Below are positions 1 to 3,000 of a DNA stretch of 64,000 nt, piece by piece (within the stretch, counting starts at the first letter, position 1; each line of letters begins with the position of its first letter). Source of the stretch: Escherichia coli (lineage in GTDB: Bacteria > Pseudomonadota > Gammaproteobacteria > Enterobacterales > Enterobacteriaceae); the NCBI RefSeq assembly GCF_022846255.1, contig NZ_AP025682.1. One strand, 5' to 3'. Position numbers: made by a program.

Positions 1-3000
1 CGTTGCGAGAAATCATAATAACGGAGGCGGAAAGGATCTTTGATCGCCACAAAAATCTTGCTGGCCACTTGTGCGTAGTCGGGTTCTTCTTGTCCCGGAT
101 AGGCTTCATTGAGGTGCCCAACCAGACATAACTCCGCTTCCTTACGCGTCATTCCAGGCCGGCGCTCGCGGTCAGCATAATAAAGCATGGCGTCAAAGAG
201 ATACATGATTGCCGCCAGCGCATCAAGCTCAACACCATCGAACGGATTTCGCTGAAGGGCGCTATATATTGAATCCAGCGTCCGCACGACCAGCAAGGCG
301 TGAGACTGAATAGACAGCTCACGACGTGCCATTGATTCATTACGAGCCTGCTCCAAAAACCCTAGCGACATAACATTCTCCCTCTGAGACGGAAGCCACT
401 ATAGTACTCCCCTGCCAATTAAGCAAAGAAACTTTGCTTAATTTTTTTTTATAGCAATGTTATTTGTTTTGATGTCATTCGCCTTCTATACTCAGTCGGT
501 ATATCAAACCGCAATTGATTAACCTGCAAATAAGAATAAAACTGATATGTACTACTCAAAGTTTCTTGAGAAACACAAATCCCCCCTCAGCCACGCACAA
601 TGGTTGCGCTTGCGCTATATTGAGCGCCAGCTACTGTGGGAACGAAAAGTCACTTCGCGCATGATTGCTGAAGAGTTTGGCGTCTCGGCGCAACAAGCTC
701 GTACTGATGTAAGAACCTATATGGAGGTCGCTCCAGGCAATGCTATTGAGAAGGGGGCCGGCCGAAAAGGGTATTTCCCCAGTACGACGTTTACGCCTGT
801 TTTGCTGGGAGACAACGATCTGGTCTGGCGTGCGACGGTAGAATTTCAACCGCCGCAAGCGGCCCACGCGCAGGAAATCCCGCTCATCCATCGCGCCGTG
901 CATAGCCGCACGCTGGCAATTTTTTTGTCAGCAATCGAACAGAAAGGACAAGTAAAAGTGACTTATGCGTCAATGGAAAACCCGGAAGGCATATCTCGTA
1001 CACTAAGCCCTACGGTAATTATCACCGTTAACGGGCGTCAGCATGTGCGAGCCTATGACTGGGGAAGTTCGGCGTTTAAGGACTTTGTTTTGGCGCGATT
1101 TCTGGACTCGCCGGAACTGATTGTTCCTGCACCCGCCCCGCCACGCAAAGATACCGCGTGGGAGGTCATAATCCCCGTGCGTTTTATCGCAAATCCAACA
1201 CTAAACAAAGCGCAACAAGAGGTAATTAAGCGGGACTATTTACTTGAACCCTCTGAATTCAACATTCGTGCACCAATGATTTTTTATTTATGCCCTGAAA
1301 ACAATCTGCCTAAAACAGATGATGAATATGCACAAGCTACTGACGCCAGCAGCCACGGCCCCTTTATCTACCCTGTTCTAGCTGTGCACGCCCAAACAGG
1401 GGAGCCTATTCATAAGTACCGCCATGCAGGTGAGAGATAGACATTCTGTTTACTAATAATTTATAGCCATTTTCTGCTCCTGCATCAGAGATATGATGCA
1501 GGAATATTAAATACCAGCCACCTATAAATTATGATTTATTAATTTCTGATTCAGTTAAATCCCTCTGAAAATAGACCCGTTTTAGTTCCATGCATCTTTA
1601 GAAATTCCGACCAAATAATGGGGTCGGCAAACATCTATTTGAGACGTTGGTTCTCATCCTCAAGATCCTTGATTATTTTAATATCAGAAGATTCCATACC
1701 GCCGTATCTGGACTTGCAGTTGTAGTAAGTGGCTTAAGATAAGCCGGCCTCCCGGCAGACATCTTTAACAGTTTGCCCGTATTCAAGCGATTTAATCACG
1801 GCGATAATCTGATTCTCAGTAAAAGGGACTTTACGCATAGCGATCTCCTTCATTGGCAGATTGATTATGCCGGAGGATCTCTAAATGTTAATGGCACGAT
1901 TATGCGGGATATTTACAATACCAGTCCAACCCTCAGCTTACTGCAATGTCAATCAAGAGGGATGGTCCACATTGACGTATCAAAATCGATCTCTGACCAG
2001 CGAGCAAAACGTAGCTCACTGGAGCGAATAAAGATAAGCAGAGTGAGTTCCGTTGCCCAGCGGGTTAGCGGCCTGCCGGTATAGCCGTCTATTTTCTCAA
2101 GTAACTCAGGGATGCGCTTTAACTCCAGCGCCGGACGATGCTGTCGATTACTGGAAGCAACCGCCCCCGCCATCTCTTGTGCCGGGTTATAATCAATTAA
2201 TCCACTTTGCACTGCATAACGCATGATGGCCGTGGTGCGCTGTTGAAGGCGGGAAGCCACTTCAAAACGTCCAGATTTCTCCACGGCTTTAATGGGAATT
2301 AACAGATCGCGGGTGCCCAGTTCAGCAATATTGCGAGCAACAATTGTTGGGAAGATATTGTCCTCCAGGCTCTTTTTTCCACGATTAGCATGATCTTCCG
2401 ACCATTTTTGGTTGGTTACGAGCCACTCTCTGGCAACCTTCTCGAAAGTAATAATCTCTTTCGCCTGCTCTTCTTTCACAGCACGTTTATGCTCACGAGG
2501 ATCGATACCAGCAGCGACCAGCTTTCTGGCCTCTTCCCTTTTCTTCCGCGCATCCGCCAGCGAAACATCCGGGTAAACGCCGAACGCCATCAAATGTTGT
2601 TTACCACCAAAACGGAAACGAAATCGCCAATACTTTGAACCGCCAGGTTTTACAAGTAAAGACATGCCGTCGCCGTCAACAAGTGAATACTCTTTCTCCT
2701 CAGGTTTTGCAGGACGAACTTTAGTATACGTTAGGGCTATAGTGGTCTTCCTTCCATTGGTATCTCGTGAGTATACAAGCAATATCGAATCGGCAAATAT
2801 ACTTATAAGTATACTCACAAGCCTGTTGATGTGGGTTGAGTCAGGTTGACTTCAGTTGAGGAGAAAAGCTGGAAAAGCCTTGCGTAGCGCGGATTTCAGG
2901 CATAAAAAAAGACCTCAGTTGAGGTCTATTTACATACTTTTGGTGCGAAGGCCGGACTCGAACATATTAATTATCCCGTTGTATTTAAGGCTATTTTATC

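What the first reader, a model, noticed from the sequence alone, without database searches (positions are those of the whole stretch)
1634..2818. Older integrase decapitated next to an IS3-family OrfA fragment
The truncated integrase ends right after the conserved WTIP segment, and an IS3-family OrfA remnant (itself with an internal stop and no OrfB) lies within about 100 bp. This suggests IS insertion followed by deletion inactivated the older element, fixing it in the chromosome.
Basis: partly seen in the sequence, partly recalled or inferred. Interest (0 to 1): 0.3.

Follow-up and report, generated by a model that had tools for sequence, protein, structure and literature searches.

The report
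Dead integrase plus gutted IS remnant
This is the decayed left end of an old defence island at the E. coli leuX tRNA gene, made of a truncated integrase pseudogene beside a gutted insertion sequence; the same scar is annotated in hundreds of E. coli genomes, so it is ordinary.

Summary
On the minus strand, window 2740..1958 encodes codons 1-261 of a 423-codon P4-type integrase. The arm-binding and central domains are present and the catalytic domain is gone. An IS3-family OrfA remnant starts about 100 bp further on.

- The IS remnant (1917..1566, 352 bp) keeps both terminal inverted repeats. It has lost about 857 bp internally and has two in-frame stops in OrfA.
- About 35 bp of orphan DNA (1918-1952) separates the integrase breakpoint from the IS left end.
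- No target-site duplication flanks the IS, although intact copies of the same 1207-bp IS have 4-bp duplications.
- The integrase start codon is also lost here (ATG to ATA).

So "IS inserted at WTIP, then a deletion ran outward" is not what the sequence shows. The IS is linked to the truncation only by proximity.

The identical integrase/spacer/IS junction occurs once per genome in at least 374 of 5426 complete E. coli genomes, including O157:H7, and each lineage carries further private lesions. It is therefore one old event. A displaced 23-nt leuX 3' end (2941-2963) and a rare 18-kb newer island with an intact integrase (2964-21029) confirm tandem accretion. The element cannot move itself. 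This is known biology of the leuX hotspot.

The parts
2941..2963 (-). Displaced 3' end of tRNA-Leu(CAA) (leuX). It is the att-core repeat that marks the tRNA-proximal end of the old island, 23 nt long, with a 1-nt deletion relative to the live tRNA end at 21030-21053.
   Evidence: Direct repeat D4; sequence; fuzzy match. In L001 the homologous bases are the 3' end of the annotated tRNA-Leu.
2904..2926 (-). leuX Rho-independent terminator. The stem is 2911-2917 / 2920-2926 and the T-run on the minus strand is 2904-2910. It was left behind with the displaced tRNA fragment.
   Evidence: Read from the sequence. leuX is known to carry a Rho-independent terminator (PMC2811032, title and abstract). 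The identification here is an inference.
1958..2740 (-). Integrase pseudogene: codons 1-261 of a 423-codon P4-type tyrosine integrase. The arm-binding domain, the central domain and the first catalytic Arg region (..FIRSSELRFARW..) are present. Codon 1 is ATA instead of ATG. Homology to the intact allele fades between 1953 and 1949. Unrelated codons LD and a TGA follow at 1957-1949.
1918..1952 (.). Orphan spacer of about 35 bp between the integrase breakpoint and the IS left end. It derives from neither integrase nor IS.
   Evidence: Alignments. One copy per genome in 374 E. coli genomes. In PLSDB the only hit is one E. coli record of 4.9 Mb. None in GTDB species representatives. No similarity to the A30 island or the newer integrase.
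1566..1917 (-). Internally deleted IS3-family element of 352 bp. It holds positions 1-296 and about 1151-1207 of a 1207-bp IS. The left repeat starts at 1917 and the right repeat ends at 1566. The deletion junction with 5 nt of filler is at 1617-1622, inside the palindrome CCGACC(1607-1612)/GGTCGG(1622-1627).
   Evidence: blastn and global alignment to intact copies L004:2555-3761, L003, L009, L010 and L018.
1623..1838 (-). OrfA remnant (HTH_Tnp_1). In-frame stops are TAA at 1736-1734 (GAA in the intact IS and in O157) and TAG at 1637-1635 (CAG in the intact IS; shared by all four strains that retain this part of the IS).
1441..1565 (.). Flank between the IS right end and the convergent brxR stop codon. 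It is shared by the BrxR-type and O157-type islands. It contains the hairpin 1479-1487 / 1494-1502. Homology to the inter-genus BrxR-Wadjet cassette ends near 1457.
547..1440 (+). Cargo of the old island: a BrxR-family WYL-domain regulator, convergent with the remnants.
   Evidence: Pfam WYL; PADLOC WYL; PGAP name.
3..371 (-). Cargo of the old island: the N-terminus of Wadjet type III JetA. The rest of the gene lies off the window.
   Evidence: Homologous L011 protein hits PADLOC JetA3 at E=0; JetC3 and JetD3 lie downstream.
2964..21029 (-). Newer 18-kb island inserted between the live leuX and the old remnant. It has an intact 415-aa P4-type integrase at 19593-20840.
   Evidence: Present in only 1 of 5426 complete E. 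coli genomes.
21030..21114 (-). Live tRNA-Leu(CAA) gene (leuX), the integration target.
   Evidence: ARAGORN.

Best explanation
Window 1566-2963 is the dead, tRNA-proximal end of an old genomic island integrated at leuX, the E. coli defence-island 'hotspot 37'.

Reading the minus strand, it holds in order:
1. the displaced leuX 3' end;
2. the leuX terminator;
3. the first 261 of 423 codons of a P4-type integrase;
4. about 35 bp of orphan DNA;
5. a 352-bp shell of a 1207-bp IS3-family element (IS407-group-like). The shell keeps both terminal repeats but has lost about 857 bp internally, including all of OrfB, the end of OrfA and any frameshift site that lay between them.

Nothing here works. 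The integrase lacks the Lys, His-x-x-Arg, His/Trp and Tyr catalytic residues, and in this strain it also lacks its ATG. The IS has no transposase and has two stops in OrfA. As a result the old island, which carries BrxR plus Wadjet type III here and PT-dependent nuclease, Zorya II and helicase/methylase clusters further left in relatives, cannot excise on its own.

The scar arose once. It has since been inherited and recombined among E. coli lineages while picking up lineage-private frameshifts, stops and deletions. Later, a rare 18-kb mobilisable island with an intact integrase integrated into leuX and pushed the scar 18 kb away from the tRNA.

Shown:
- the anatomy, the breakpoints and the domain content;
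- the single shared junction;
- the absence of the integrase C-terminus and of OrfB;
- the tandem att repeats.

Inferred:
- the order of events. At least three separate rearrangements are needed: the integrase/spacer junction, the loss of one IS flank and its target duplication, and the IS-internal deletion. Point decay came on top of these;
- that the integrase truncation was not made by the IS end itself.
For: Domain content and breakpoint:
- Arm-DNA-bind_3 and Phage_int_M are present and PF00589 is absent, whereas all three are found in the intact A30 integrase and in the newer integrase.
- The fragment aligns to residues 1-261 and then diverges.

IS anatomy:
- Window 1917..1622 matches IS positions 1-296 and 1619..1565 matches IS positions 1154-1208, at 85-90% identity.
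- Intact copies are 1207 bp with TG..CA ends and 4-bp duplications GCTA, GTTT, GTAT and CATC.
- The window flanks are GTAT and GAGG.

Single old event:
- The spacer occurs exactly once per genome in 374 of 5426 genomes, including O157:H7 and O55:H7.
- The full int'-IS'-brxR stretch covers at least 80% of the query in 373 genomes.
- An alignment of five strains shows the same int/spacer/IS junction. The IS-internal junction and the TAG stop are identical in the four strains that retain that part of the IS (strain 2A has deleted it). Secondary lesions differ between strains: ATA start, frameshifts, extra stops, a 13-bp deletion and a 202-bp deletion.
- No genome has a full-length IS at this site, tested with a chimeric query.

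No rescue copy:
- The integrase C-terminus and OrfB are absent from the window and from 45-49 kb of homologous islands.
- No distal att copy was found there either.

Tandem accretion:
- att repeats lie at 2941-2963 and 21030-21053.
- The remnant abuts leuX directly in L001.
- The newer island is seen in only one other genome, in a different neighbourhood.

Relaxed constraint:
- Lineage-private changes have N:S = 24:23 on the truncated alleles, against 5:32 on the intact A30 allele.

Literature:
- leuX anchors the most occupied E. coli defence hotspot, with the arm-type integrase at one end (PMC12707154).
Against: - The origin of the 35-bp spacer is unknown, so the exact event that truncated the integrase cannot be reconstructed.
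- An IS-mediated step cannot be excluded, for example recombination between two IS copies, or an earlier insertion whose traces were later deleted.
- Pairwise dN/dS among truncated alleles is 0.14-0.20, lower than a long-dead pseudogene should show. I attribute this to recombination with intact alleles at the same locus, but did not prove it.
- 'Cannot excise' ignores possible action in trans by the related newer integrase. It is 76% identical to the A30 integrase over the C-terminal region that the fragment lacks and is related over the retained part as well.
- The distal end of the old island lies outside the window. It was examined only in two other strains.
Confidence: 0.85

Rival explanations
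1. An IS3-family element inserted directly into the integrase gene at the WTIP codons. A deletion starting inside the IS then ran outward, removing OrfB, the right IS end and the integrase C-terminus.
For: - The IS remnant and the integrase breakpoint lie only about 35 bp apart.
- The integrase C-terminus is absent everywhere that was examined.
- The same IS type does split another integrase gene, by simple insertion with a 4-bp duplication, in ETEC1730. The site there is ..LRSSELCALRW|RDIDF.., 13-14 codons upstream of the equivalent of WTIP.
Against: - The right IS end is retained at 1566-1590, so the deletion that removed OrfB is internal to the element.
- The left repeat starts at 1917, but integrase homology ends at 1949-1953, with about 35 bp of unrelated DNA between.
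- There is no target duplication.
- No genome among 5426 has an intermediate with a full IS at this site.
Confidence: 0.1
2. Two-IS recombination or IS-mediated cargo replacement. The spacer-plus-IS segment came from elsewhere. Homologous recombination between two copies of the IS joined a foreign left flank (the spacer) to the BrxR-side flank, and the integrase was clipped in the same or a linked event.
For: - The two IS flanks do not belong together, as there is no target duplication.
- Cargo to the left of the IS differs between lineages.
- Between this window and strain CFSAN061771, divergence jumps from 0.3% (1-1948) to 5.2% (1949-2963) exactly at the integrase/spacer junction.
Against: - The spacer has no second home in any collection searched.
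- No second copy of this IS lies in the homologous islands.
- The O157 cargo difference is explained by a plain 10-kb deletion that does not touch the IS.
- The integrase/spacer junction would still be an illegitimate join.
Confidence: 0.2
3. The truncated integrase is a retained, functional DNA-binding protein (arm-binding plus core-binding domains). For example, it might occupy leuX att sites and influence integration or excision of incoming tandem islands.
For: - The ORF is uninterrupted for 261 codons with an ATG in O157:H7.
- Pairwise dN/dS among truncated alleles is 0.14-0.20.
- Both DNA-binding domains score as well as in intact integrases.
Against: - Four of five sampled lineages carry an additional inactivating lesion: ATG to ATA in three, frameshifts in two and premature stops in two.
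- Lineage-private substitutions are about 1:1 N:S, against 5:32 on the intact allele.
- O157 has non-conservative changes in the conserved RSSEL motif.
- PGAP calls it a pseudogene in every locus inspected.
Confidence: 0.04

Closest known systems
P4-type (arm-type) tRNA-targeting tyrosine integrases of E. coli leuX islands; closest intact relative WP_053264522.1 in E. coli A30
   Same: - Same position and orientation next to the leuX 3' end, with the same att core.
- 92% nucleotide and about 95% amino-acid identity over residues 1-261.
- Same Arm-DNA-bind_3 and Phage_int_M domains.
   Different: - Lacks residues 262-423, meaning the whole PF00589 catalytic domain apart from the first Arg motif.
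- The start codon is mutated in this window.
- The intact allele with its downstream DNA occurs in about 139 genomes. The truncated junction occurs in at least 374.
IS3 family, IS407-group-like 1207-bp element (intact copies L004:2555-3761, L003, L009, L010, L018). I did not determine its ISfinder name. The group assignment rests on my memory of group traits: about 1.2 kb, a 4-bp duplication, and the OrfA sequence pattern.
   Same: - TG..CA termini and imperfect terminal repeats.
- An OrfA with HTH_Tnp_1.
- 85-90% nucleotide identity over the retained 352 bp.
   Different: - Missing positions of about 297-1150, which include the end of OrfA, any frameshift site between the two ORFs, and the whole DDE OrfB.
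- Two stops in OrfA.
- No target duplication.
- Single copy per genome.
E. coli defence-island hotspot #37, anchored by leuX (Hochhauser et al. 2023, PMC10121019; reviewed in PMC12707154)
   Same: - The locus, the arm-type integrase at the tRNA-side anchor, and variable defence cargo.
- Wadjet III with BrxR here; PT-dependent nuclease, Zorya II and helicase/methylase clusters in relatives.
   Different: The review describes the integrase as the 'mobilizing activity present at one anchor'. In this widespread variant that activity is dead, and mobility at the site is supplied by newer tandem islands.
Simple IS-disrupted integrase in ETEC1730 (L018)
   Same: The same IS species interrupts the start of the catalytic domain of a tyrosine integrase.
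   Different: In ETEC1730 both integrase halves, a full IS and a 4-bp duplication (CATC) are present, in a different integrase and with the IS in the opposite orientation. In the window none of these hallmarks of a simple insertion remains.

Membership tests
P4-type tyrosine integrase (tyrosine recombinase superfamily) | N-terminal arm-type DNA-binding domain | tested here: met
   PF13356 Arm-DNA-bind_3, E=1.3e-27, residues 3-87.
P4-type tyrosine integrase (tyrosine recombinase superfamily) | Central (core-binding) domain | tested here: met
   PF22022 Phage_int_M, E=4e-26, residues 99-193.
P4-type tyrosine integrase (tyrosine recombinase superfamily) | Catalytic domain with the R..K..H-x-x-R..H/W..Y residues | tested here: not met
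   No PF00589 hit, whereas the intact A30 integrase and the newer integrase do hit it. The alignment stops at residue 261, before the GSKM..PH, HGFR and AAYIH motifs. The fragment is therefore a pseudogene derived from the family, not a functional member.
P4-type tyrosine integrase (tyrosine recombinase superfamily) | Gene adjacent to the 3' end of a tRNA gene, with the tRNA 3' end repeated as the att core | tested here: met
   A 23-nt leuX 3' copy lies at 2941-2963, 200 bp upstream of codon 1. The remnant is directly next to the live leuX in L001 and L007.
IS3 family insertion sequence | Terminal inverted repeats ending 5'-TG...CA-3' | tested here: met
   The left repeat reads TGTAAATATCCCGC from 1917. 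The right end reads ..GGGTCTATTTTCA, finishing at 1566. Both align to the ends of intact copies.
IS3 family insertion sequence | OrfA with a helix-turn-helix (HTH_Tnp_1) | tested here: met
   PF01527, E=8.6e-19 on the conceptual translation with the two stops masked.
IS3 family insertion sequence | OrfB with a DDE (rve) catalytic domain, expressed by -1 frameshifting | tested here: not met
   IS positions of about 297-1150 are deleted. tblastn of OrfB against the window finds nothing. Intact relatives have rve and rve_3 domains and an annotated programmed frameshift.
IS3 family insertion sequence | Short (3-5 bp) direct target duplication | tested here: not met
   The window flanks are GTAT and GAGG. 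Intact copies have GCTA, GTTT, GTAT and CATC.
MITE-like non-autonomous IS derivative | Both terminal repeats retained around a short non-coding core | tested here: met
   352 bp with both ends present.
MITE-like non-autonomous IS derivative | Multiple dispersed copies showing mobilisation in trans | tested here: not met
   The flanking spacer occurs once per genome in 374 genomes. The five loci aligned across the junction all show the same int'/spacer/IS context. The remnant has no target duplication.
Tandem genomic-island array at a tRNA gene | Repeated copies of the tRNA 3' end delimiting successive islands, with the newest next to the tRNA | tested here: met
   Repeats at 21030-21053 and 2941-2963. 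The intact integrase lies at 19593-20840 next to the tRNA. The inner island is rare (1 of 5426 genomes) and the outer remnant is common (at least 374).
Tandem genomic-island array at a tRNA gene | A distal att repeat closing the older island | tested here: not met
   No further copy (up to 4 errors allowed) in 44.7 kb of L011 or 49 kb of L012. The distal end lies outside the window itself.

The most novel reading that the evidence does not exclude
The integrase/spacer/IS scar may not be inert. Either the 261-codon arm-binding and core-binding fragment is still made in lineages such as O157:H7 and modulates use of the leuX att site by incoming islands. Or the conserved scar serves as a fixed block of homology through which defence cargo and tRNA-side tandem islands are swapped between strains. 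The second idea would fit the abrupt 0.3% to 5.2% divergence step exactly at the junction, and the low pairwise dN/dS.
Probability: 0.05. Interest if true: 0.45.

Novelty: already known. Interest (0 to 1): 0.12.

Why it matters
It matters little beyond correct annotation. The finding explains why a large defence island (Wadjet III with BrxR, and in relatives Zorya II, a PT-dependent nuclease and helicase/methylase clusters) is stably resident at leuX in about 7% of complete E. coli genomes: its own integrase is catalytically dead and no distal att site is detectable.

It also gives a clean, dated example of tandem accretion at a tRNA hotspot, with a rare 18-kb island stacked on a common old scar.

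As a caution for sequence-only reading, an IS fragment next to a truncated gene is not proof that the IS did the truncating. Here the two remnants are separated by orphan DNA, and the IS lost its interior rather than its outer end.

Tried and rejected
1. Integrase C-terminus elsewhere. tblastn with A30 residues 256-423 against the window found only the newer integrase. The full A30 integrase against 45-49 kb of homologous islands found no C-terminal match.
2. Origin of the 35-bp spacer.
   - blastn against 5426 E. coli genomes found the same context only, one copy per genome.
   - PLSDB gave only one E. coli record of 4.9 Mb, chromosome-sized.
   - An exact degenerate 27-mer search of 100,044 GTDB species representatives gave zero hits.
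   - blastn-short against the A30 island, the newer integrase and all fetched loci gave nothing above 9-11-mers.
3. An ancestral arrangement via relatives of the neighbouring brxR in other genera. Four loci were found (Photorhabdus, Oceanimonas, Endozoicomonas, Carnimonas) with the BrxR-JetABC cassette, but none has an integrase nearby, and homology stops at window ~1457.
4. An intermediate with a full-length IS at this site. A chimeric query (integrase end + spacer + IS 1-296 + IS 297-800) was never covered beyond the IS part in any of 5426 genomes.
5. A long target duplication. The 17 nt on each side of the IS match at 10/17 (P~0.006 for that one length). I tried only seven lengths (4, 8, 12, 17, 20, 25, 30) and picked 17 after seeing the similarity, so I treat the match as chance.
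6. Purifying selection on the fragment. Pairwise dN/dS is low, but private changes are about 1:1 N:S and most lineages carry extra lesions. I rejected a retained function as the main reading.
7. A second IS copy or an inversion partner in the island. None was found.
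Full report
**What is at the coordinates.**
The minus strand of window 1949-2818 carries a 289-codon ORF. From 2740 to 1958 it aligns codon for codon with residues 1-261 of an intact 423-aa integrase that lies next to tRNA-Leu in E. coli strain A30 (L007:3021-4292). Identity is 92% at the nucleotide level and about 95% at the protein level.

Pfam finds the arm DNA-binding domain (PF13356, 1e-27) and the central domain (PF22022, 4e-26) but not the catalytic domain PF00589. Both the A30 protein and the window's own second integrase (19593-20840) do hit PF00589. The fragment ends ...FIRSSELRFARWSEIDFDTSMWTIP. It therefore keeps the first catalytic arginine motif and lacks everything downstream, namely the GSKM..PH, HGFR and AAYIH motifs of the intact proteins.

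After WTIP come two unrelated codons and a TGA that is specific to this lineage; other strains read on for about 10 more unrelated codons. In this window the native start codon is ATA rather than ATG. The 27 codons upstream of it, back to the GTG at 2818, are not integrase.

**The IS remnant.**
A helix-turn-helix OrfA remnant begins 110 bp beyond the integrase stop, at ATG 1838 (HTH_Tnp_1, 9e-19 with stops masked). Comparison with plasmid and chromosomal copies identifies a 1207-bp IS3-family element. It has TG...CA ends, an 88-aa OrfA and a DDE OrfB with rve and rve_3 domains.

Window 1917..1622 matches IS positions 1-296, and window 1619..1565 matches IS positions 1154-1208, at 85-90% identity. 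The remnant is therefore 352 bp (1566-1917). It keeps both terminal inverted repeats and has lost about 857 bp internally. Five nucleotides of filler sit at the junction, inside a small palindrome (1607-1612 / 1622-1627).

OrfA carries two in-frame stops. TAA at 1736-1734 is GAA in the intact IS and in O157. TAG at 1637-1635 is CAG in the intact IS and is shared by every strain aligned that retains this part of the IS. No OrfB sequence exists in the window.

**The junctions.**
Homology to the intact integrase fades between 1953 and 1949, while the IS left end is at 1917. The intervening ~35 bp (TTGACATTGCAGTAAGCTGAGGGTTGGACTGGTAT) resembles neither integrase nor IS.

Four intact copies of this IS are flanked by clean 4-bp target duplications: GCTA, GTTT, GTAT and CATC. 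The remnant is flanked by GTAT on the left and GAGG on the right. A 17-nt similarity between the two flanks (10/17) has P~0.006 for that length alone. I tried only seven lengths and picked 17 post hoc, so I treat it as chance.

It predicts a left repeat abutting integrase codons and a missing right repeat. Both predictions fail. At least three separate rearrangements are needed:
- an illegitimate join between codon ~262 and the spacer;
- loss of one original IS flank;
- the IS-internal deletion.

The IS is implicated in the integrase truncation only by proximity. The postulated first step does happen in nature. In ETEC1730 the same IS sits inside a different integrase gene at ..LRSSELCALRW|RDIDF.., with both gene halves and a 4-bp duplication intact.

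tblastn with the intact C-terminus (A30 residues 256-423) against the whole window finds only the newer integrase at 19602-20075 (76% identity) and nothing else below E=0.1. In 44.7 kb and 49 kb of the homologous islands of two other strains there is no integrase C-terminus and no second copy of the IS. The C-terminus is truly gone.

**How widespread and how old.**
- Window 1400-3100 is covered at 80% or more in 373 of 5426 complete E. coli genomes.
- The 35-bp spacer occurs exactly once per genome in 374 genomes, including O157:H7 and O55:H7.
- PGAP annotates the pair as pseudogenes in every locus inspected.
- An alignment of five strains shows the same integrase/spacer/IS junction. The IS-internal junction and the TAG stop are the same in the four strains that retain that part of the IS (strain 2A has deleted it). 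Secondary lesions differ:
  - ATA start in three;
  - a frameshift near codon 31 in CFSAN061771;
  - a stop at codon 39 in XDL;
  - a frameshift and a stop in strain 2A;
  - a 13-bp deletion in the O157 OrfA;
  - a further 202-bp deletion in strain 2A.
- No genome has a full-length IS at this site.
- The intact integrase allele survives in about 139 genomes.

This is one old event followed by independent decay. Lineage-private substitutions in the truncated alleles have N:S = 24:23, against 5:32 on the intact A30 branch, which indicates relaxed constraint.

Pairwise dN/dS among truncated alleles is nevertheless 0.14-0.20. Divergence is also mosaic. Against CFSAN061771 the window differs at 6 sites in 1-1948 and at 53 sites in 1949-2963, so the step falls exactly at the junction. 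I read this as recombination at a hotspot, including exchange with intact alleles. I did not prove it.

**Context: old and new islands.**
ARAGORN finds one tRNA, Leu(CAA), at 21030-21114 on the minus strand; this is leuX. Its 3' 24 nt are repeated, with a 1-nt deletion, at 2941-2963. A hairpin plus T-run that I take to be the leuX terminator follows the repeat (PMC2811032 for the existence of that terminator).

In strains such as CFSAN061771 the integrase remnant lies directly next to the live leuX. In the window, an 18-kb AT-rich island (2964-21029) lies between them. It carries an intact 415-aa P4-type integrase next to the tRNA. That island is found in only one other complete E. coli genome, beside different DNA. 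The topology and the frequencies both support 'older' for the remnant.

The old island's cargo is defensive. In the window it comprises a BrxR-family WYL regulator (547-1440) and the start of Wadjet type III jetA (3-371). In relatives JetB, JetC3, JetD3, a PDC-S11 nuclease, a phosphorothioate-dependent nuclease, Zorya II and a large helicase/methylase cluster follow.

No distal copy of the att core was found in those islands. The locus is the published E. coli defence hotspot #37, anchored by leuX (PMC12707154).

**Mechanistic conclusion.**
Nothing in 1566-2963 is functional. The integrase fragment can at most bind DNA, and the IS shell has no transposase and shows no sign of mobilisation in trans. 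The consequence is immobilisation of the old island. Site-specific activity at leuX now comes from newer elements that stack between the tRNA and the scar.

The newer integrase could in principle recombine 2941-2963 with 21030-21053 and remove only the 18-kb island. This is inference.

**Verdict.**
The feature is ordinary and already annotated in public genomes.

Noticed in passing
window 2964-21029: The newer 18-kb AT-rich island at leuX carries an intact P4-type integrase (19593-20840), DUF6387 (18612-19523), a MobA/VirD2 relaxase (10185-11372), DUF4755, and a type II N6-methylase (3686-5371) overlapping a double-GHKL ATPase (5364-7673). It also has an overlapping minus-strand operon, 13757-17905, with two PF00589 tyrosine recombinases plus a 542-aa ORF; from memory this resembles a 'recombinase in trio' unit. 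The island is present in only 1 of 5426 complete E. coli genomes (TUM11353, 99.3%).
   Followed up: partly
window 1-1457; L011:34090-43031; L014-L017: A BrxR-family WYL regulator is divergently paired with a Wadjet type III operon (JetA3, JetB, JetC3, JetD3, by PADLOC). The BrxR-JetABC part is conserved as a block in Photorhabdus khanii (85% nt) and in Oceanimonas, Endozoicomonas and Carnimonas. Homology stops about 17 nt past the brxR stop codon. The block behaves like a portable cassette.
   Followed up: partly
window 1429-1440 versus L012:39985-39996 (O157): O157:H7 and O55:H7 lack BrxR and Wadjet. A ~10-kb deletion fused the 3' end of the phosphorothioate-dependent restriction endonuclease to the last 12 nt of brxR. 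The nuclease therefore ends ..GFV|GER* instead of ..GFVEWHRKEVFRG*.
   Followed up: yes
window 1949 (step), compared with L001: Divergence between the window and strain CFSAN061771 jumps from 0.3% (6 differences in 1-1948) to 5.2% (53 in 1949-2963). It stays near 4-5% through leuX, ahr and yjgR. A recombination breakpoint thus coincides with the integrase/spacer junction.
   Followed up: partly
L018:2549-4929 (ETEC1730 chromosome): An intact copy of the same 1207-bp IS splits a different tyrosine integrase gene at ..LRSSELCALRW|RDIDF.., with a 4-bp duplication (CATC). This lies 13-14 codons upstream of the position equivalent to the window's breakpoint. It is a second case of this IS at the start of an integrase catalytic domain, and it may be coincidence.
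   Followed up: partly
window 1607-1627; L006 (strain 2A): Strain 2A has a second deletion of 202 bp (window 1619-1820). Its endpoint lies within 3 nt of the older IS-internal deletion junction, at the palindrome CCGACC...GGTCGG. This may be a local deletion hotspot.
   Followed up: no
window 22333-27381: An idnK-idnD-idnO-idnT-idnR-like operon lies between ahr and yjgR. By Pfam it encodes a shikimate-kinase-family (SKI) kinase (idnK-like), a Zn-dehydrogenase, an SDR, a GntP permease and a LacI regulator. This ~5 kb is absent from the three comparison strains examined (L001, L007, L008).
   Followed up: partly
L008:3021-3662 (strain 95NR1): The same integrase allele is truncated at a different point (about codon 214-220) in strain 95NR1. 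It is followed there by unrelated cargo: an AbiE toxin-antitoxin pair and an ICE membrane-protein fragment. This is either an independent truncation or a further deletion of the same scar.
   Followed up: no
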